A stretch of 9,131 nucleotides of DNA from Escherichia coli (GTDB lineage: Bacteria > Pseudomonadota > Gammaproteobacteria > Enterobacterales > Enterobacteriaceae), in the NCBI RefSeq assembly GCF_003334785.1, contig NZ_QOWV01000034.1; one strand, 5' to 3'. Both the position numbers and the translations under genes were made by a program. Positions 76-7,194 of this stretch are shown piece by piece (the stretch's first letter is position 1; every line of letters begins with the position of its first letter). The notes under the pieces were generated by a model, which had not been told where the DNA came from, did not search any database, and was given only the letters and a program-made list of their open reading frames with translations.

Positions 76-100
76 TGAACCGCCCCGGGAATCCTGGAGA
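76..100. repeat. Left terminal inverted repeat (IRL) of the IS element
   Basis: 25-bp sequence starting TGAAC, matching the reverse complement of 1361-1385 at 23/25 positions. Confidence 0.8.
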
Positions 101-129
101 CTAAACTTCCTGAGAAAGAGGTAAACAGG

Positions 130-456
130 ATGACTAAAAATACTCGTTTTTCCCCCGAAGTCCGTCAACGGGCAGTCCGTATGGTTCTGGAAAGTCAGAG
201 CGAATATGACTCACAATGGGCGACAATTTGTTCCATTGCTCCAAAGATTGGCTGTACGCCGGAGACTCTGCGTGTCTGGGTTCGCCAGCATGAGCGGGAT
301 ACCGGGGGCGGTGATGGTGGGCTCACCAGCGCTGAACGTCAGCGTCTGAAAGAGCTGGAACGTGAAAATCGTGAACTGCGCCGCAGTAACGATATCCTTC
401 GCCAGGCTTCCGCTTATTTTGCGAAGGCGGAGTTCGACCGCCTCTGGAAAAAATGA
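130..456 (+). CDS. IS3-family transposase OrfA (helix-turn-helix DNA-binding subunit with leucine-zipper-like C-terminus)
   Basis: 108-aa ORF. N-terminal HTH-like segment ([13 protein letters not shown]...[14 protein letters not shown]) and C-terminal heptad-like segment ([27 protein letters not shown]), as in IS3-family OrfA. Ends at the A6 slippery tract. Confidence 0.85.
448..456 (+). other. Candidate programmed -1 ribosomal frameshift / translational coupling site (A6 tract, AAAAAATGA) joining orfA and orfB
   Basis: A6 run at 448-453 directly before the overlapping ATGA. IS3-family elements commonly make an OrfAB fusion by -1 frameshifting on A-rich slippery sites. No downstream structure was evaluated. 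Confidence 0.4.
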
Positions 457-1343
457 TGCCACTGCTGGATAAGCTGCGTGAGCAGTACGGGGTCGGACCG
501 CTATGCAGCGAACTGCATATTGCCCCGTCAACGTATTACCACTGTCAGCAACAGCGACATCATCCGGATAAACGCAGTGCCCGTGCGCAGCGCGATGACT
601 GGCTGAAGAAAGAGATACAGCGCGTATACGATGAAAATCACAAGGTATACGGTGTGCGTAAAGTCTGGCGTCAGTTGTTACGGGAAGGTATCAGAGTGGC
701 CAGATGCACTGTGGCACGTCTCATGGCGGTTATGGGACTTGCCGGTGTTCTCCGGGGTAAAAAGGTCCGTACGACCATCAGCCGGAAAGCCGTTGCCGCA
801 GGCGACCGCGTAAACCGTCAGTTCGTGGCAGAACGACCTGACCAGCTGTGGGTGGCTGATTTTACTTACGTCAGCACATGGCAGGGCTTCGTCTATGTGG
901 CGTTTATCATTGATGTGTTTGCCGGATACATCGTGGGGTGGCGGGTCTCATCGTCTATGGAAACGACATTCGTGCTGGATGCGCTGGAGCAGGCGTTGTG
1001 GGCCCGTCGTCCGTCTGGCACCATCCATCACAGCGATAAAGGCTCTCAGTATGTGTCACTGGCCTATACGGAGCGACTAAAAGAAGCCGGATTACTGGCA
1101 TCAACAGGGAGTACAGGCGACTCGTATGACAACGCGATGGCGGAGAGCATCAATGGTCTTTACAAAGCGGAGGTAATACACCGTAAGAGCTGGAAAAACC
1201 GTGCAGAAGTGGAACTGGCCACACTAACGTGGGTGGACTGGTATAACAATCGACGATTGCTGGGAAGGCTGGGCCATACTCCTCCGGCAGAAGCAGAAAA
1301 AGCTTATTATGCTTCCATCGGAAACGATGATCTGGCAGCCTGA
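453..1343 (+). CDS. IS3-family transposase OrfB (DDE catalytic/integrase-core subunit)
   Basis: 296-aa ORF in the -1 frame relative to orfA. Candidate DDE residues in [16 protein letters not shown] and [13 protein letters not shown] (RNase-H-like transposase core). ATG at 453-455 overlaps orfA stop TGA at 454-456. Confidence 0.85.
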
Positions 1344-1360
1344 GTTCACAGATAAAACAC

Positions 1361-1385
1361 TCTCCAGGAAACCCGGGGCGGTTCA
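1361..1385. repeat. Right terminal inverted repeat (IRR) of the IS element
   Basis: Reverse complement TGAACCGCCCCGGGTTTCCTGGAGA pairs with 76-100; located 18 bp after the orfB stop codon (1341-1343). Confidence 0.8.
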
Positions 1386-1428
1386 TACTGTACGAAGAAA
1401 GAAACTACCGACTTCCGCGGAGATCACA

Positions 1429-1437
1429 TGGTAGAAT
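1429..1437 (+). promoter_or_regulatory. Candidate extended -10 promoter element (TGGTAGAAT) upstream of the 1507-2082 membrane protein gene
   Basis: TGnTAGAAT resembles an extended -10 (TG + TATAAT, 5/6 match) about 70 nt upstream of the ATG at 1507. No convincing -35. A GAGG Shine-Dalgarno lies about 6 nt before the ATG. Sequence-only guess. Confidence 0.25.
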
Positions 1438-1506
1438 GCTATGTGATAAAAAATGAGGTTGTGGTTGCCCGGGCCCAGATTGAAGTTCCCATAAGCTGAG
1501 GTTTTT

Positions 1507-2082
1507 ATGACGCAATCAGAGATGCTGAAATTAATCGCCCGACATGGTTATAACGTTGGATTTGGCGCTAAGAAAAACTTTGCCACCTATGATCTGATTT
1601 GTAAGGCATCCGGTTGGATTAGCTTTATTTCTCTTGCTGTCGGTGTGTTCGCCCTTTTTATTCCTGAGCTGGCCACAAACGTCATTTCCGCGATATTAAT
1701 TATATTTGGTGTTGCTACAATGTACATTCAGTTTTATGACTCGGAAAAGCAGAGTTATGAAAGTGCGGGGATTGAGCAGACCAAAATTTTTAATGAACTT
1801 GAAGTCATCTACCGCAACGTAAAAAGCGATGCAAACTTTGACTATCAGCGTACACAACAATCCATCGACGCTATCATGTCCCGGTTTTACGGCACGGTCA
1901 TCAGCAAACAGATCTTCGGAAGTAACTGGTACGCACATTATAAATTTTACTGTGAATTTGAAAAAGCATGGGTTGAAGAAGAGCTGAACCTGACACTGAA
2001 GGACAAAATCCCGCTTTCGCTCTGCTTTCTCGCCGGTCTGGCGATCATTTTTACTATAGCTGTCATCTGGAAAACGCCCTGA
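1507..2082 (+). CDS. Small multi-pass membrane protein of unknown function (two adjacent N-proximal hydrophobic helices plus a C-terminal one; SLATT-like or Abi-like effector topology is a guess)
   Basis: 191-aa ORF with GAGG RBS. Hydrophobic segments WISFISLAVGVFALFIPEL and ISAILIIFGVATMYIQF (about residues 36-76) and IPLSLCFLAGLAIIFTIAVIW (about 168-188), separated by a charged, presumably soluble ~90-aa region. AT-rich codon usage like the neighbouring defence operon. Confidence 0.7.
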   Translation: MTQSEMLKLIARHGYNVGFGAKKNFATYDLICKASGWISFISLAVGVFALFIPELATNVISAILIIFGVATMYIQFYDSEKQSYESAGIEQTKIFNELEVIYRNVKSDANFDYQRTQQSIDAIMSRFYGTVISKQIFGSNWYAHYKFYCEFEKAWVEEELNLTLKDKIPLSLCFLAGLAIIFTIAVIWKTP

Positions 2083-2634
2083 TGCTGCAGCCAATGAAAA
2101 ATTCAGCAAGCTGACTGTCAAATATGCGATGTATAGCCGGTATCACCATCCAGTGTACGTTCTATAAGGGGGGGCGCTTGGAAAACGGGTAGAGTCAAGA
2201 TGTGGCGCGGTAATTTTACAGGTCAGGCATATCTGTTGCCGCCTCTTTCGATTGGCGGAGCCTTACTGTCCTGACCATAAATCCTGTTTCCACACCCCGC
2301 TCATCGAAGCGGACATGCGCTTCTAACACATCCGGCTCTCGGACAGAATCATGCCTTCGCCCACGGAAACCTCTGCGGGAGCTTCGGTGCATATTTTCAT
2401 GGAAGGGGATCACCCAATAACTTCCATCGAGATCGGGTCATAACGGCCAATCCGTGATCGAATAGAGCGGAATACGCACTCTGACGAACTGCTTACATTT
2501 AAACTAATTACAAACTATATAAATCCGCCTTGCTCATTCACAGGGTAGATATATTCTTACTTTTAATTTTATGTGTAATTAACTGATGACGAAAAATGAA
2601 TTGAACTGTAAATGCATATCTAAGTTTTTCATTC

Positions 2635-3360
2635 TTATGATGTACATAATACCTTAAAATTATCAACTAGCTGAGCATTAACCTCCATCTGACTAATCCC
2701 CCATAATGCGGCTAACTGTTTCTCTGCAATCCCACTATCCCATGGCATTAGTGGGTCATTACGAAACTTAGCAAATGGCCCATCTGTTTCTGTAAGAATG
2801 CGTGATTTGGGTATTTTCAAAACTAAGGCCTTACCCTTTATTGTATCGAGCATAGCAGGCCCCACTGAGAACCAGCATCCTAAATCAATTGCCCTTTCAA
2901 GCTGCTTAGGTGTTCCAGTGAACCAATGCAATATTGCCACCCCATCGATATTTTCAATCTCATCAAGCACCGCTGATGCACTTCCCCGACTATGGATAGT
3001 CATAATCTTGCCACCAGCCCGATTTACACTGTTGAGAATGTGTCGGAACACTTTCAATTGAATATCCCAATGTTCTTTAAATCCCTGTCCACCATCAAGC
3101 CCTATTTCCCCTACATACTTAGTTTCCGAAAGCAATGAATCAAACAGGTCTAACTCATGCGATCTTTGATGCGCGATTTGAGGATGTAGCCCAAGAGCAG
3201 TTCGGATTCGTTGACTTTCTTTAGCCAATAAAGAAGTACCATGCCATGCTTTAGGTGTTGTTGTCACCGACAGAATATAAGTCCCTCGACGTTTACTTTC
3301 TTCAGCCACGAGGTCTGGCCGAGGATATAAGTCTAGATGACAGTGCATATCGATGCTCAT
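2635..3360 (-). CDS. qatD: TatD-family metal-dependent hydrolase/DNase, QatD of a Qat defence system
   Basis: 241-aa ORF beginning MSIDMHCHLDLY (the HxH metal-binding motif that opens TatD-family TIM-barrel hydrolases), with further conserved His/Asp/Glu positions. ATGA start/stop overlap with the upstream QueC-like gene at 3357-3360. Last gene of the operon. Confidence 0.85.
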   Translation of the reverse strand: MSIDMHCHLDLYPRPDLVAEESKRRGTYILSVTTTPKAWHGTSLLAKESQRIRTALGLHPQIAHQRSHELDLFDSLLSETKYVGEIGLDGGQGFKEHWDIQLKVFRHILNSVNRAGGKIMTIHSRGSASAVLDEIENIDGVAILHWFTGTPKQLERAIDLGCWFSVGPAMLDTIKGKALVLKIPKSRILTETDGPFAKFRNDPLMPWDSGIAEKQLAALWGISQMEVNAQLVDNFKVLCTS

Positions 3361-4676
3361 ACTATGTTCTCACTCAGTAAATAGCTTTCAACCTCATCTA
3401 GGCCATCCTTAAATACTTGCTTGAAATTATCAAATTCTGCCGTAGGCAAAGGGCCACTTTTGGCAATCCATGTACCTATTTTCAAAGTCGATTTCTGCGT
3501 GATCGCAATCCTAAGGGCGATCAGGTCGTCCCTGCGATCTATTTCATTCATTACTTTAGCTAAGGACTGGAAAATATATTCAACATCTCTACTAATTCCC
3601 CCTGCATGAAGTGATGCTCGTCGAATGATACACGGTATACATACCCCACATTGCTGCCCCATTCGTTTCCAATGACTGCAGGATACTGTACTTTCCACAA
3701 TTTTAGATAAGAGCTGCTTATTTGAACATTCGGAGATCATTTTTCCTTTTGTCTTAAACTGATATGGATTGATTATTTGACAAGAAATACCGAGCGCATC
3801 AAAGATCTTTTGTATGCTCGTAATAAAATGTGGATGTGTTGTTCGTGTGCTCAGCGAACCTATCCGCCGTGGAGTAAGTGGTGCATTTAATGAGATAAAT
3901 CCATTTTCAGGTACGAACAAATCAATCTTTTCTTGTTGAGATATCTCTTGTACGGCACAAGCACCTACGGCCGCAAGGGCAAGAAAATTGAGGCTACGAG
4001 TTCGCATCGTAATATCAGTCACGCCTTGATAAATGTGTGGGTCAGCATTAATCTCAAAGCGCGAAAATTGGCCACTTAATTTTTCAGCAATCTGATCTTG
4101 ACGAGACTTATCCCCTTTATAAGCATGACTAACCAAAAGTGGAGCGCGCCCTGCAGCCAGAAGATCTATTGCACCAATAGCTGAATCCAGACCTCCTGAA
4201 AATAAGCTGACACAGTCAAGCCCTTTTAGCTTAATCAGACGATGCCTTGAATGCTGGCTATAAGGCTCTGGCGGTGCATAACCATCGTCACAAAATTCGA
4301 AATCCCAGATGTCTCCACTAAGAAAATGCAAAGCACTCTCAAGTTCTTTCTTTAGACTAATCCATCTGGATGGTTCATGAAGGGGGAGTCGTAACGACAA
4401 TTGGCGGGTCCAACCATCCTCGGAACTTTCACGCTGAACGAAAGTATCTGCTGCAGTTACTGCTAATGCAACACTCAGAAAATCCATGACCTTAGCTGGA
4501 AGCTGTACTCCCAAACGTCTGATCCGATCAATCGCAGGATTCCCGATAACAGATATATCTCCGCGCCTCTGACCACTTAATCCATATAGCTGAACAGGTA
4601 ACACTTTCTCACTTGCTGGCGGCAAATGGTGATGTTTATGATGGAAAACTAATTGTGTCACTGGTATGCCTCCCAT
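3357..4676 (-). CDS. qatC: QueC-like PP-loop ATPase (7-cyano-7-deazaguanine synthase family) with an N-terminal extension, QatC
   Basis: 439-aa ORF. PP-loop motif SGGLDS at residues 160-165 (nt 4182-4199, minus strand). C-terminal cysteine cluster CSHWKRMGQQCGVCIPC resembling the QueC zinc site. Operon context with KAP NTPase and TatD. Confidence 0.8.
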   Translation of the reverse strand: MGGIPVTQLVFHHKHHHLPPASEKVLPVQLYGLSGQRRGDISVIGNPAIDRIRRLGVQLPAKVMDFLSVALAVTAADTFVQRESSEDGWTRQLSLRLPLHEPSRWISLKKELESALHFLSGDIWDFEFCDDGYAPPEPYSQHSRHRLIKLKGLDCVSLFSGGLDSAIGAIDLLAAGRAPLLVSHAYKGDKSRQDQIAEKLSGQFSRFEINADPHIYQGVTDITMRTRSLNFLALAAVGACAVQEISQQEKIDLFVPENGFISLNAPLTPRRIGSLSTRTTHPHFITSIQKIFDALGISCQIINPYQFKTKGKMISECSNKQLLSKIVESTVSCSHWKRMGQQCGVCIPCIIRRASLHAGGISRDVEYIFQSLAKVMNEIDRRDDLIALRIAITQKSTLKIGTWIAKSGPLPTAEFDNFKQVFKDGLDEVESYLLSENIV

Positions 4677-5410
4677 TCTTGCCAGGCCTCAATAATGGCC
4701 TGACGTTCAATTTTTACCATTTGGTTTCGTGTGAACGATCTTATGTTACCGGCAAGTTTTGGTGCCATATGTTTATCAACAACAACTTTAATCAATTCCC
4801 GGAGTTCAATTTCTGCATGAATTGCCTTTGAAGGTGTATCTGCTTTGTTCCATGCCCTATTAGAATCCATTACCATCTGAAGGAAAATACTTTCCGCTAG
4901 ATAACCAATCATTGTGTCAACAATCAAACCATCAGTTATTTTTTGAGGATCGAAAATTTCTACGCCATCAAGAGCCTCCACTAAAGCATGGTTCATGGCC
5001 GCACAGATCTTTTCTGAGTCACCATCCTGTGATGTTAAAGCTTGAGCAATAGTTGATATTGCTATTTCGCATGGAAGGCCTGCCAAACTGCCCAAATCGA
5101 TGCTTGGTTCTCCGGGAGCCGAAGGCATTCCCACTAAAGCCCCAAATAATTCGGCCCCAGCTTGCGTGACACTCCCTAATCGCCGAGCAGCGTTACTGCT
5201 CCCTCCGGAGGCTTTTCGCGCGTAGTGCCCTATGGCTTTTCTGAAATCTGCTCGATTTCCATTTGATACCGCATTTCCCAACGATTCTCGAAATGGCGCA
5301 AACCTCCTTTCTTGCGGCGAGGGTAACGGTTGCTGTGGCTGATCATCAGCCCATGGTGGAACCAGCGGAGAGCCACCTCCTGGACCTTTACTTGATTGTG
5401 ATGTTCCCAT
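4658..5410 (-). CDS. qatB: QatB, protein of unknown function (Gly/Pro/Ser-rich N-terminal ~100 aa followed by a helical domain)
   Basis: 250-aa ORF between the KAP NTPase and QueC-like genes. Start ATG shares one nucleotide with the qatA stop (TAATG at 5408-5412) and the 3' end overlaps the qatC start by 19 nt. Assignment is by operon position; no motif recognised. Confidence 0.6.
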   Translation of the reverse strand: MGTSQSSKGPGGGSPLVPPWADDQPQQPLPSPQERRFAPFRESLGNAVSNGNRADFRKAIGHYARKASGGSSNAARRLGSVTQAGAELFGALVGMPSAPGEPSIDLGSLAGLPCEIAISTIAQALTSQDGDSEKICAAMNHALVEALDGVEIFDPQKITDGLIVDTMIGYLAESIFLQMVMDSNRAWNKADTPSKAIHAEIELRELIKVVVDKHMAPKLAGNIRSFTRNQMVKIERQAIIEAWQEWEAYQ

Positions 5411-7194
5411 TAAGCGTCCTTATTCCATTGTTCATCTTTTAATGCTGCAGTCATCCACGCTGGTCGTTTCATCCCCAACTGTAATTCCTGTAGATAACGA
5501 ATTAATATGCTGGCTGCATCTGTTGAGTAGCGGGCCAACAGACATGCGCCGGAAAAGCCTCTGGGCTTACGATCCCAATCTGATACCTGCCGTAACTGGT
5601 TAATTAAACCTTCCATTACAGGTATTTGCTCCTCACGAGGAAGTGCTTTCAAAAGGTTTTCTGCTGTAGGAGAACTAGTGTTTTTCAATTCAATTAGTGC
5701 ATTTAGTACTTCCCGTCCAGATGGCGATAAACCAACCACATATGCACCTATTGGCATAGTTTCTCGGGACAGATATATGGCGGCCCTTAAGTCAATCCCA
5801 CCAAGACGAGGTTCAAGTTGGGCCCATTGACTGATGAAAGATTTAGTCGTTGGACTATCAGTCCATGTCTTTGGTGCATCAGTAGGTATTTGACCGCCAT
5901 TATCGTCAAGCTGTTTAAGTATCTGGGGAACACCTTGTTCAATATCCACGAGATGATATAAATCAGCGGTGCCATCCACTCCAACACAGCGTTCAAAAAT
6001 TACTAGCTTAGTAATAATTGCTTCATCCAAAGGCATTGCTCGTCGCTTCGCAATTTGAGATCGCATTTTCACAACATTCAACAAGCGTTTAACGATCCTG
6101 GGATTACCATGAATAATTGGAGAGTTGGCTAAAATGGGAGCAATACGGTCAGCACGCGCAAACGCCAGCGCGAGGTTGCTATCATCCGCTTCACCAGTCA
6201 TTTTTAAGGCCTCCTGACGTGAGATTGGTTCATCTTTCCAGGATTGCTGTAACGCCTTCTCTAAGCCCTCACGGAGCATAGTTATTTTTTCGCCTTCTAA
6301 GCCATGTTCAATGGCATAAAGCATGAACAGATACGAACGGATCTCACGGACCCCAGCCTTAGGCACCCGAATAGGAACCTGGATTAGCTTATCCAGATAA
6401 TCTATTTGATGGCGCTGTGATGCCCCTTTGAAGTAATCAGCCACAGAAGAGCGAATCATGTCCTCATCTGCTGCAATAATAAAGGCTGTATTAGTCAAGA
6501 AAAGGAATAGCCTGATAGCTTCAAGTGTATGGATAGCATTGGCAGGGAGACAGCGGTCTAGGTTATCTATTACCACAATGAGTGGCTTTCCAAGTTCTTC
6601 TAGAATTTCCCCATATTCCTTACGAAAGGCATCAATCTGCTGAGGGGGGCTTTTTTTTGTTTGTGGTTTAATCAAACCACAAGCAGTTTCTTTACCTTCT
6701 TTAGCTATATTGCCTAAAGCCTCATACTCTTCCTGGCTCTGGATGCCATCGGTGATATTTCTTAATGCACCAATCCCCCTAGAAAGCAAACCGCCAGTAG
6801 GTAATCCTGCCATTAAAGCTGTACCCTCAGCTAGTAATCCCATAGCTCTAAAACCATCAACTCGACTAAGGAGTCTCTTAGTTTTTGATATAAGGGTAGA
6901 ATTACCTTCAGCAGCTTTTGTCAATTCTGTAGCGATGACTTCAAGAAGTGCGGCACGGGCGTCGTCGTACCCCTGATAGAGCCAAGAGTCAAAATTGATA
7001 ACAATCCAATCTTTGTCGTCTTGCTCAAGTTTTTGCTCTATCAGTTTTAACAGAGAGGATTTACCTGCCCCCCAGTTTCCAAAAATTCCGATAGATACTG
7101 GTAACATATCTTTCGTGGTAAGTACATCCACGGCTAACTGAGATACTTCACCAAAATTTAGGTAGTCTTCTGATGACTCTTTGTCTGACCACAT
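5410..7194 (-). CDS. qatA: KAP-family P-loop NTPase, QatA
   Basis: 594-aa ORF. Walker A GNWGAGKSS at residues 39-47 (nt 7057-7080). Walker B-like PLIVVIDNLDRC, the hhhhDxLDR signature typical of KAP NTPases. AAGGAT RBS 6 nt upstream of ATG. First gene of the four-gene operon. Confidence 0.8.
   Translation of the reverse strand: MWSDKESSEDYLNFGEVSQLAVDVLTTKDMLPVSIGIFGNWGAGKSSLLKLIEQKLEQDDKDWIVINFDSWLYQGYDDARAALLEVIATELTKAAEGNSTLISKTKRLLSRVDGFRAMGLLAEGTALMAGLPTGGLLSRGIGALRNITDGIQSQEEYEALGNIAKEGKETACGLIKPQTKKSPPQQIDAFRKEYGEILEELGKPLIVVIDNLDRCLPANAIHTLEAIRLFLFLTNTAFIIAADEDMIRSSVADYFKGASQRHQIDYLDKLIQVPIRVPKAGVREIRSYLFMLYAIEHGLEGEKITMLREGLEKALQQSWKDEPISRQEALKMTGEADDSNLALAFARADRIAPILANSPIIHGNPRIVKRLLNVVKMRSQIAKRRAMPLDEAIITKLVIFERCVGVDGTADLYHLVDIEQGVPQILKQLDDNGGQIPTDAPKTWTDSPTTKSFISQWAQLEPRLGGIDLRAAIYLSRETMPIGAYVVGLSPSGREVLNALIELKNTSSPTAENLLKALPREEQIPVMEGLINQLRQVSDWDRKPRGFSGACLLARYSTDAASILIRYLQELQLGMKRPAWMTAALKDEQWNKDA

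What the first reader, a model, noticed from the sequence alone, without database searches (positions are those of the whole stretch)
2635..7194. Four-gene operon with the QatABCD defence-system architecture (KAP NTPase, unknown, QueC-like, TatD)
Read from sequence: four co-directional minus-strand genes with overlapping junctions (TAATG at 5408-5412, 19-nt overlap at 4658-4676, ATGA at 3357-3360), so they are translationally coupled. Motifs: Walker A GNWGAGKSS and VIDNLDRC (KAP NTPase), SGGLDS PP-loop plus Cys cluster (QueC-like), MHCHLD (TatD). Established knowledge: this gene content and order defines the Qat anti-phage system (QueC-like / ATPase / TatD). Its mechanism is poorly understood, so a well-delimited, IS-flanked, AT-rich instance is a good experimental handle.
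Basis: partly seen in the sequence, partly recalled or inferred. Interest (0 to 1): 0.7.

Follow-up and report, generated by a model that had tools for sequence, protein, structure and literature searches.

The report
Known QatABCD anti-phage operon

Summary
Four co-directional, overlapping minus-strand genes lie at exactly the stated coordinates and carry the stated motifs. All four proteins match the PADLOC QatA/B/C/D profiles over their full length (E = 0, 2e-130, 1e-140, 6e-97). QatC and QatD pass the NCBIfam equivalog cut-offs. A predicted QatB structure matches only solved QatB chains. Every residue shown experimentally to be essential in other Qat systems is conserved.

The operon is 100 % identical to E. 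coli strain 300709 and at least 99 % identical in about 250 records, where RefSeq already names qatC and qatD. It is therefore already known.

Three refinements apply:
- This is a compact clade (594/250/434/241 aa) in which QatC is only 37-38 % identical to the two structurally studied systems. The clade may never have been tested directly.
- QatC most likely starts at GTG 4661, giving a 4-nt GTGA overlap rather than 19 nt.
- "IS-flanked" holds only loosely. An IS629-truncated CBASS remnant and an unrelated repeat-containing ORF lie between the insertion sequences and the operon.

The claim that the mechanism is poorly understood is partly outdated by three structural studies from 2025-2026.

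The parts
5410..7194 (-). qatA: KAP-family P-loop NTPase, 594 aa. Walker A GNWGAGKSS at 7054-7080 (K45). Walker B VIDNLDRC at 6550-6573 (D210). The C-terminal half (aa ~372-594) is an all-alpha helical-repeat domain. Shine-Dalgarno AAGGA at 7202-7206.
4658..5410 (-). qatB: 250-aa putative substrate/adaptor protein. It has a disordered N-terminal tail (aa 1-28, nt 5327-5410) beginning MGTSQS, followed by an all-alpha body. Its start overlaps the qatA stop (TAATG, 5408-5412).
   Evidence: PADLOC QatB PDLC02212 2.3e-130. Family members carry the precomputed Pfam PF28083 'QatB'. NCBIfam QatB 74.4 bits, below the 100 cut-off, over aa 69-243 only. Invariant in 16 sequences: M1 G2 T3 S4 Q5 S6 G9 S14 P15 L16 P18 W20 A21 D22. 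111 of 120 family representatives start MGTSQS. AF2 model pLDDT 83.8, residues 1-27 below 50. Foldseek against the PDB hits only QatB chains 9y01_A and 9y02_A (E 1.7e-6, probability 1.00, TM 0.59/0.67).
3357..4676 (-). qatC: QueC-like PP-loop ATP pyrophosphatase with N- and C-terminal extensions, 439 aa as the longest ORF and as PGAP calls it. The probable true start is GTG 4659-4661 (434 aa), with Shine-Dalgarno GGGAGG at 4669-4674. PP-loop SGGLDS at 4182-4199. STRTTHP (T277, T279) at 3831-3851. Zn cluster C333/C343/C346/C349 at 3630-3680.
   Evidence: PADLOC QatC 1.1e-140. NCBIfam QatC 414.2 bits, above the 280 cut-off. Pfam QueC only 3.3e-4. PDB QatC 9zee_B 1.1e-63 and 9vlk_A 2.3e-54, at 38.1 % and 37.1 % identity, with all tested catalytic and Zn residues conserved. 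The canonical QueC motifs YxQxHxxE, VPxRN and YPDC are absent. Start-codon evidence.
2635..3360 (-). qatD: TatD-family metal-dependent nuclease, 241 aa. HxH (H6, H8) at 3337-3345. H59. ETDGP with D193 at 2776-2790. Its start overlaps the qatC stop (ATGA, 3357-3360).
   Evidence: PADLOC QatD 5.8e-97. NCBIfam QatD 331.5 bits, above the 230 cut-off. Pfam TatD_DNase 3e-43. PDB 9xsn_A 5.6e-75 and 3gg7_A 6e-66. H59 and D193 have the same numbering as residues whose mutation abolished Qat defence in bioRxiv 10.1101/2022.06.16.496414.

Best explanation
The region is a complete and apparently intact QatABCD anti-phage defence operon in an E. coli tRNA-Phe/integrase genomic island. It belongs to a compact, highly conserved and horizontally mobile clade with proteins of about 594, 250, 434 and 241 aa.

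Shown here: the identity of all four genes, their order and coupling, the conservation of every residue reported as essential, the QatB fold, and the fact that the four genes move as a unit with no conserved neighbour.

Inferred by homology from work on other Qat systems: the four proteins are made from one polycistronic mRNA. QatB loses Met1, which exposes Gly2. Its helical body docks on the QatC-specific extensions, and its disordered tail (MGTS... P18, W20) threads into the QatC PP-loop active site. QatC uses ATP to adenylate a still-unidentified carboxylate and transfers it to the Gly2 alpha-amine, in parallel with Cap9 deazaguanylation of CdnD in type IV CBASS. The same QatB tail tethers the TatD nuclease QatD in a 1:1:1 QatBCD complex. 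QatA is a soluble, oligomeric, DNA-binding KAP NTPase that does not bind the other three, and it widens the range of phages restricted, possibly as a sensor. The output is restriction of phage replication, most plausibly by QatD-mediated DNA degradation once QatB is modified. Whether the infected cell survives is not settled.
For: Family assignment. RefSeq annotates qatC and qatD on identical DNA. QatB fold. Conserved functional residues: QatC S160/S165, T277/T279 and C333/C343/C346/C349; QatB G2, P18 and W20; QatA K45 and D210; QatD H6/H8, H59 and D193. The same four-gene module occurs in seven other loci (six located through QatB homologues, plus a Xenorhabdus IncC plasmid; taxa include Pectobacterium, a Shewanella plasmid and Nitrosomonas) with unrelated flanks. 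Mechanistic steps come from PMC13279940 (QatBC sufficient against lambda-vir; G2D and tail deletions abolish defence; QatA binds DNA and forms a 7-8-mer), PMC13376578 (Met1 removed; Gly2 sits in the active site), bioRxiv 10.1101/2025.11.03.686418 (QatBCD 1:1:1; QatB lacking residues 1-46 loses QatD), bioRxiv 10.1101/2022.06.16.496414 (purified QatD degrades DNA; H59A and D193A abolish defence) and PMC13329287 (QatC cannot replace QueC).
Against: No experiment exists for this clade, unless the unidentified 'E. coli 46-1' system belongs to it. QatA and QatB score below the NCBIfam equivalog cut-offs (386 against 600, 74 against 100), and QatB is only 17 % identical to the solved QatB. No sigma-70-like promoter or terminator was found for the operon, and the upstream region is not conserved between loci, so expression is unproven. 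In the literature QatC activity has never been reconstituted, the transferred group is unknown, and reports conflict on whether QatA and QatD are required and on whether defence is direct or abortive.
Confidence: 0.9

Rival explanations
1. The operon is intact in sequence but silent or on its way to decay, as a passenger in a degrading, IS-riddled island that contributes nothing to phage resistance in this strain.
For: The neighbours are decayed. The CBASS cyclase is truncated by IS629. T6SS VasL/ImpA genes survive only as remnants. The upstream ORF is frameshifted in CFT073 and disrupted in TW10722. No sigma-70-like promoter was found upstream of qatA. DNA at 28-44 % G+C in E. coli is a typical H-NS silencing target (established knowledge).
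Against: The operon is at least 99 % identical in 253 records and covers at least 80 % of its length in 243 genomes. All four ORFs and every catalytic residue are intact here. The simple promoter scan is weak evidence, because the same module functions behind unrelated upstream sequences in many taxa.
Confidence: 0.1
2. A rival mechanism from the PhageMaP preprint: Qat is an abortive-infection system in which QatB depolarises the membrane, QatC modifies host DNA to protect it, and QatD degrades unmodified phage DNA.
For: Bas63 genes 84 and 85 (RIIA/RIIB homologues) counter qatABCD, and deleting them lowers plating 10^4-10^5-fold. P. aeruginosa QatABCD cultures collapse at high MOI.
Against: QatB is modelled as a soluble all-alpha protein with a disordered tail, and its homologues crystallise as soluble 1:1 complexes with QatC. 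QatC lacks the nucleobase-binding motifs of QueC and does not restore queuosine synthesis. QatBC alone defends against lambda-vir without QatD. Growth curves with T4(C) argued against abortive infection.
Confidence: 0.12
3. The QueC-like gene is part of, or serves, a type IV CBASS system together with the neighbouring CBASS genes.
For: Both systems use a QueC-family enzyme that acts on a partner protein's N-terminal glycine. In intact islands a CBASS cyclase plus SLATT effector lies about 0.55 kb from qatD.
Against: The cyclase N-terminus is MSHREL rather than MGGS. There is no Cap9-sized (~185 aa) QueC and no Cap10 transglycosylase in the window. The two modules are convergently transcribed. 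The Qat module occurs without CBASS in seven other loci. In this window the cyclase has been destroyed.
Confidence: 0.01
4. It is a queuosine or 7-deazaguanine biosynthesis or DNA-modification cluster rather than a defence system.
For: Older annotations of homologues read '7-cyano-7-deazaguanine synthase'. There is a weak Pfam QueC match.
Against: TIGR00364 QueC scores 21 bits against a cut-off of 150. The QueC catalytic motifs YxQxHxxE, VPxRN and YPDC are absent. No QueD, QueE, QueF, Tgt or DpdA genes are present. A homologous QatC fails to complement an E. coli queC deletion.
Confidence: 0.01

Closest known systems
QatABCD of E. coli NCTC9009 (the founding system of Gao et al. 2020; QatC and QatBC structures 9vlk/9vll; PMC13376578, bioRxiv 10.1101/2025.11.03.686418)
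   Same: Same four families in the same order. The PP-loop serines, the Thr-x-Thr pair, the four Zn cysteines, QatB Gly2 and the QatA Walker B D210 are all conserved.
   Different: QatC is only 37.1 % identical. QatB matches 9vll_A only at E = 1.1e-8. The proteins here are shorter (QatC 434/439 aa against about 457; QatB 250 aa against about 275). This clade falls under separate PADLOC QatA and QatB profiles (PDLC02210 and PDLC02212, against PDLC02209 and PDLC02213) and below the NCBIfam QatA and QatB cut-offs.
QatABCD of Pseudomonas aeruginosa (QatBC structures 9zee/9zef and 9y01/9y02; PMC13279940)
   Same: The QatB MGTS motif and the Pro/Trp pair (Pa P16/W18, here P18/W20). QatC S156/S161, T278/T280 and the Cys4 cluster map to S160/S165, T277/T279 and C333/C343/C346/C349. 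The predicted QatB fold matches 9y01_A.
   Different: QatC identity is 38.1 % and QatB identity 17 %. The QatC basic patch R410/R414 is K395/K399 here. Whether QatBC alone is sufficient in this clade is unknown.
Type IV CBASS Cap9-CdnD (N-terminal deazaguanylation)
   Same: A QueC-family PP-loop enzyme bound to a partner protein whose Gly2 enters the active site, a mechanistic analogy taken from the literature.
   Different: Cap9 is about 185 aa and keeps the canonical QueC nucleobase-binding Tyr and Asp, whereas QatC replaces them with Thr and adds N- and C-terminal extensions. The partner is QatB rather than a CD-NTase. There is no Cap10.
Canonical QueC (7-cyano-7-deazaguanine synthase, TIGR00364/PF06508)
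   Same: Rossmann-like PP-loop fold, SGGxDS motif and a Cys4 zinc site.
   Different: It scores far below the family cut-off (21 against 150 bits). The catalytic motifs are absent. It is roughly twice the length, and the Cys spacing is C-x9-C rather than C-x8-C.
PifA (F-plasmid KAP NTPase, T7 exclusion) and PADLOC candidate PDC-S20
   Same: The QatA N-terminal KAP NTPase domain matches PifA (2.3e-27) and PDC-S20 (1.8e-26).
   Different: The similarity covers only the NTPase domain (aa 6-304). Those are stand-alone systems without QatB, QatC or QatD.

Membership tests
QatABCD (Qat) anti-phage system | QatA: KAP-family P-loop NTPase with intact Walker A and Walker B | tested here: met
   Pfam KAP_NTPase 1.8e-54. 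PADLOC QatA E=0 over the full length. K45 and D210 present.
QatABCD (Qat) anti-phage system | QatA reaches the curated NCBIfam equivalog score (NF041923, 600 bits) | tested here: not met
   385.8 bits. This explains the PGAP name 'KAP family P-loop NTPase fold protein'. It reflects the clade coverage of that one model rather than exclusion from the family, because the PADLOC clade-specific profile matches end to end and homologues form a continuous full-length series.
QatABCD (Qat) anti-phage system | QatB: all-alpha protein with a long disordered N-terminal tail starting MGTS (Gly2 acceptor) and a conserved Pro/Trp pair | tested here: met
   MGTSQS..P18..W20 invariant. Tail pLDDT below 50 with a helical body. 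The only significant PDB fold hits are QatB chains. PADLOC 2.3e-130. The NCBIfam QatB score is 74.4, below the 100 cut-off.
QatABCD (Qat) anti-phage system | QatC: QueC-like PP-loop enzyme with SGGxDS, a Cys4 Zn site, Thr-x-Thr in place of the QueC Tyr/Asp, and N- and C-terminal extensions | tested here: met
   NCBIfam QatC 414 bits, above 280. Residue mapping onto 9zee_B and 9vlk_A. Motif scan. Length of 434-439 aa against about 220 for QueC.
QatABCD (Qat) anti-phage system | QatD: TatD-family nuclease with metal-binding HxH and Asp | tested here: met
   NCBIfam QatD 331.5 bits, above 230. Pfam 3e-43. H6, H8, H59 and D193 present.
QatABCD (Qat) anti-phage system | All four genes adjacent, co-directional, in the order A-B-C-D | tested here: met
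   The same order is seen in seven other loci.
QatABCD (Qat) anti-phage system | QatB-QatC physical complex and dependence of defence on QatC catalysis and QatB Gly2 | not testable with these tools
   Shown only for the NCTC9009 and P. aeruginosa homologues. The interface basic patch is conservatively substituted here, R to K.
QatABCD (Qat) anti-phage system | Confers protection against phage | not testable with these tools
   No experimental record was found for this clade. The sequence of the 'E. coli 46-1' system could not be retrieved, and no paper links qatABCD with CFT073.
Type IV CBASS | CD-NTase with an N-terminal MGGS motif, a Cap9 (~185-aa QueC) and a Cap10 (TGT-like) in one operon | tested here: not met
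   The cyclase of the neighbouring module starts MSHREL and is truncated in the window. No Cap9- or Cap10-like ORF is present.
Canonical QueC / queuosine pathway | TIGR00364 equivalog score and the catalytic motifs YxQxHxxE, VPxRN and YPDC | tested here: not met
   21.3 bits against a cut-off of 150.3. All three motifs are absent.

The most novel reading that the evidence does not exclude
The compact 594/250/434/241-aa clade, with a QatB tail that is nearly invariant over its first 28 residues, may be a functionally distinct Qat subtype. It has not been tested experimentally and is only 37-38 % (QatC) and about 17 % (QatB) identical to the studied systems. It might attach a different group to QatB Gly2, or differ in its need for QatA and QatD or in its phage range. 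Its unusually high cross-phylum conservation (QatB 60-90 % identical, 84 of 120 representatives exactly 250 aa) might make it the homologue in which the missing QatC substrate can finally be identified.
Probability: 0.15. Interest if true: 0.4.

Novelty: already known. Interest (0 to 1): 0.15.

Why it matters
It matters little beyond correct annotation. Qat is an established defence system, and this exact operon is already in RefSeq with qatC and qatD named. Three points have practical value. First, qatA and qatB of this clade are systematically left unnamed by PGAP ('KAP family P-loop NTPase fold protein', 'hypothetical protein') because the NCBIfam equivalog cut-offs are tuned to another clade. 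Second, the qatC start is probably mis-set by five codons in most E. coli records. Third, anyone working on the open question of what QatC attaches to QatB has here a second, highly conserved E. coli clade, present in the well-studied strain CFT073, to compare with NCTC9009.

Tried and rejected

2. Regulatory signals. The sigma-70 promoter and terminator scan found nothing convincing for the operon and fewer sites than in shuffled sequence. Aligning 200 nt upstream of qatA from six loci showed no conservation beyond the ribosome-binding site. Rfam found only the IS3 frameshift pseudoknot.

3. Whether the tested 'E. coli 46-1' system is this clade. The preprint text gives no accession. The shared QatD numbering (H59, D193) is suggestive but not decisive.

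4. How common the NCTC9009 clade is in E. coli relative to this one. I could not obtain its DNA. The QatC homology search returned only same-clade sequences among the 120 listed, so this was not measured.

5. Linkage of the upstream 373-aa ORF or the SLATT gene to Qat. Rejected: neither is adjacent to Qat outside E. coli.

6. A phage origin for the operon. Rejected: only two weak Listeria-phage QueC-like hits.

7. A membrane-inserted KAP NTPase. Rejected: no hydrophobic segment above 1.65 on a 19-residue Kyte-Doolittle window.

8. Locus L003 could not be read from the script machine, so the built-in alignment tools were used instead.

Full report
OBSERVATION. Reading the junctions directly confirms TAATG at 5408-5412, a 19-nt overlap ATGGGAGGCATACCAGTGA at 4658-4676, and ATGA at 3357-3360. 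The motifs are present where stated: Walker A GNWGAGKSS with K45, Walker B VIDNLDRC with D210, PP-loop SGGLDS at QatC 160-165, the cluster C333-x9-C343-xx-C346-xx-C349, and MHCHLD at QatD 5-10. The operon is 43.8 % G+C.

IDENTITY. Against PADLOC-DB the four proteins hit QatA (E = 0, 1133 bits, residues 1-593 against profile 1-593), QatB (2.3e-130), QatC (1.1e-140) and QatD (5.8e-97), and no other system is called for them. NCBIfam equivalogs are passed by QatC (414 bits against a cut-off of 280) and QatD (331 against 230). QatA (386 against 600) and QatB (74 against 100, C-terminal part only) fall short. Pfam gives KAP_NTPase 1.8e-54, TatD_DNase 3e-43, a weak split QueC match (3.3e-4) and nothing for QatB in the library scanned. 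The precomputed Pfam annotation of QatB homologues is PF28083, which the context tool names 'QatB'.

Because QatB is the weakest link by sequence, I predicted its structure from a 16-sequence family alignment (pLDDT 83.8, residues 1-27 disordered, otherwise all-alpha) and searched the PDB. The only significant matches are the QatB chains of QatB-QatC complexes 9y01_A and 9y02_A (E 1.7e-6, probability 1.00, TM 0.59/0.67, 17 % identity), and the next hit has E = 0.27. Canonical QueC membership fails: TIGR00364 scores 21 against 150 bits, and the motifs YxQxHxxE, VPxRN and YPDC are absent.

ALREADY KNOWN. The window is E. coli chromosomal DNA. The operon is 100.0 % identical to strain 300709 (NZ_CP025903.1), at least 99 % identical in 253 records, and covered over at least 80 % of its length in 243 of 5,426 complete genomes, including CFT073. 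RefSeq names qatC and qatD there. QatA is 'KAP family P-loop NTPase fold protein' and QatB is usually 'hypothetical protein', which follows from the NCBIfam cut-offs. In strain BS74R-D the locus lies in an island next to tRNA-Phe and an integrase.

WHICH QAT. The founding system is from E. coli NCTC9009, and structures exist for that one and for a P. aeruginosa system. The window's QatC is 37.1 % identical to NCTC9009 QatC (9vlk_A) and 38.1 % to the P. aeruginosa protein (9zee_B). QatB matches the solved NCTC9009 QatB only at E = 1e-8. QatA has no solved relative. So this is a different clade from those studied.

The clade is large and strikingly uniform. There are 439 QatB homologues, and of the 120 listed 84 are exactly 250 aa, 111 begin MGTSQS, and they are 59-90 % identical across Enterobacterales, Shewanella, Aeromonas, Pseudomonas, Nitrosomonas and Desulfobulbaceae. 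Seven loci from distant genomes or plasmids all carry KAP (about 594 aa), QatB (about 250), a QueC-like gene (432-439) and TatD (237-247). Their flanks are entirely different: integrases, Trb conjugation genes, toxin-antitoxin pairs, restriction-modification, TIR, Fic and Tn3. A full copy at 85 % DNA identity sits on a conjugative IncC plasmid of Xenorhabdus. The four genes are therefore a self-contained mobile module. It is essentially absent from sequenced phages.

CONSERVED FUNCTIONAL RESIDUES. Mapping onto the solved proteins shows that every experimentally essential residue is present. These are the PP-loop S160/S165 (Pa and Ec S156/S161), T277/T279 (Pa T278/T280; Ec T276/T278), the Zn ligands C333/C343/C346/C349, and the basic patch K395/K399 (Pa R410/R414). 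In QatB, G2 and the P18/W20 pair (Pa P16/W18) are invariant. QatA D210 is the Walker B residue mutated by Gao et al. 2020, as cited in PMC13376578. QatD H59 and D193 carry the numbering of the inactivating mutations in the 46-1 system.

START CODON. The 19-nt overlap depends on using ATG 4676. In the alignment of seven QatB/QatC junctions, the column at window 4661 is GTG in five loci and ATG in two (L004, L005), always 7-10 nt after GGGAG(G). The upstream in-frame ATG is created by QatB's invariant Glu-Trp codons (GAA-TGG) and disappears where Glu is GAG (L004, L009). Protein alignment puts the L004 and L005 N-termini at our residue 6-7. 78 of 120 cluster representatives are 434 aa beginning MTQLVFHH, and some 439-aa calls have Met at position 6. 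PGAP uses the 434-aa form on the Xenorhabdus plasmid. I therefore favour GTG 4661, which gives 434 aa and a 4-nt GTGA overlap, at roughly 70 % confidence. Translational coupling holds either way. AAGGA Shine-Dalgarno sites precede qatA and qatB.

HOW IT WORKS. None of this can be shown from sequence, and the model is transferred from homologues. QatB and QatC form a 1:1 complex that is sufficient against lambda-vir. QatB G2D, deletion of tail residues 16-22, QatC active-site mutations and Zn-site mutations all abolish defence. Met1 is removed, and Gly2 sits where the second substrate of PP-loop enzymes binds. QatB also binds QatD through its tail, giving QatBCD at 1:1:1, while QatA binds none of them. 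QatA binds DNA and forms a 7-8-mer. Purified QatD degrades DNA. QatC cannot substitute for QueC.

The most likely mechanism is ATP-dependent ligation by QatC of an unidentified carboxylate onto QatB Gly2, analogous to Cap9-CdnD deazaguanylation, which licenses a QatD-linked nuclease response, with QatA acting as an accessory sensor or range-extender. Several questions remain open in the literature: the identity of the adduct (the Thr-x-Thr substitution argues against CDG), the absence of any in-vitro activity, the conflicting reports on whether QatA and QatD are required, and direct versus abortive defence. RIIA/RIIB-like counter-defence genes hint at a membrane or abortive component.

My attempt to add information on the QatA C-terminal half gave a confident all-alpha helical-repeat model with no specific structural relative outside KAP NTPases. 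QatA has no predicted membrane segment.

SURROUNDINGS. IS629 occupies 76-1385, with 25-nt inverted repeats, orfA/orfB and the ALIL frameshift pseudoknot. Its insertion removed all but the last 36 codons (1389-1499) of a 442-aa CBASS oligonucleotide cyclase, which is intact in CFT073 and BS74R-D (PADLOC Cyclase 1.8e-176). That leaves the SLATT 2TM effector gene (1507-2082, plus strand) orphaned.

Upstream of qatA, separated by 131 nt, is a 373-aa ORF at 28-35 % G+C (7326-8447). It has an in-frame 9-bp tandem repeat of 5.8 copies here and about 38 copies in BS74R-D. It has no Pfam, PHROG or NCBIfam match and only a weak PADLOC PD-Lambda-4_B hit. Its family is tiny and it is not linked to Qat elsewhere. 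Positions 8686-9066 are a T6SS VasL remnant according to PGAP, and 9057-9131 looks like an IS66-family end. 'IS-flanked' is therefore only loosely correct, and the window is a patchwork of decayed defence and secretion genes around one intact system.

VERDICT. The feature is a textbook instance of a known system, already annotated on identical public sequence. The only mildly interesting aspect is that it represents an unstudied, highly conserved clade. Interest is low.

Noticed in passing
window 7326-8447 (-), repeat at 7414-7465: A 373-aa ORF at 28-35 % G+C lies 131 nt upstream of qatA and runs in the same direction. It contains an in-frame 9-bp tandem repeat (TCAGCAACC, giving (AEV)n) with 5.8 copies here and about 38 in strain BS74R-D (472 aa). 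It is frameshifted in CFT073 and disrupted in TW10722. It has no Pfam, PHROG or NCBIfam match, only a weak PADLOC PD-Lambda-4_B hit (3.6e-6), and a family of just 15 clusters in Enterobacterales plus one Vibrio. Many database copies are 'partial' because contigs break at the repeat. It is not linked to Qat in other genera. Function unknown, and the repeat could make it length- or phase-variable.
   Followed up: yes
window 1389-2082 (+): Decayed type I CBASS. The SLATT 2TM effector gene (1507-2082) is intact. Its partner oligonucleotide cyclase (442 aa in CFT073, PADLOC Cyclase 1.8e-176) is reduced by the IS629 insertion to its last 36 codons (1389-1499). An orphan pore-forming effector gene without its activator may be silent or on its way to loss.
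   Followed up: yes
window 76-1385 (+): Full-length IS629 (IS3 family, 1,310 bp) with 25-nt terminal inverted repeats (76-100 and 1361-1385), orfA 130-456, orfB 453-1343, and the ALIL programmed-frameshift pseudoknot at 411-527 (Rfam RF01497, 120 bits). In strain TW10722 the same IS copy carries a group II intron insertion.
   Followed up: partly
window 8686-9066 (-) and 9057-9131: The 126-aa ORF is annotated by PGAP in related genomes as a truncated VasL-domain (type VI secretion) pseudogene. Homology to most E. coli genomes stops at 9056, and the last 75 nt start GTAAGCG, which looks like an IS66-family end (ISEc23 follows in TW10722).
   Followed up: partly
window 4658-7194 (annotation issue): PGAP leaves QatA and QatB of this clade unnamed in most of the roughly 250 E. 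coli records, because the NCBIfam equivalogs NF041923 and NF041924 score 386 against 600 and 74 against 100 bits. A few newer records do name QatB. The models appear tuned to the NCTC9009-type clade.
   Followed up: partly
window 2083-2634: The 552-nt convergent intergenic region between the SLATT gene and qatD has a locally G+C-rich patch (about 50 %, 2216-2413; a 65-aa ORF on the minus strand is probably spurious). The region as a whole is island-specific (244 genomes). A piece of about 35 nt (roughly 2446-2481) recurs at many other chromosomal and plasmid sites (up to 33 places per genome). Its nature was not determined.
   Followed up: partly
L004 5223-7000: In one distant genome, QatA of the same clade is split into two ORFs (267 aa with the KAP NTPase domain, then 319 aa). 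This is either a frameshifted pseudogene or a sequencing error, while QatB, QatC and QatD remain intact.
   Followed up: no
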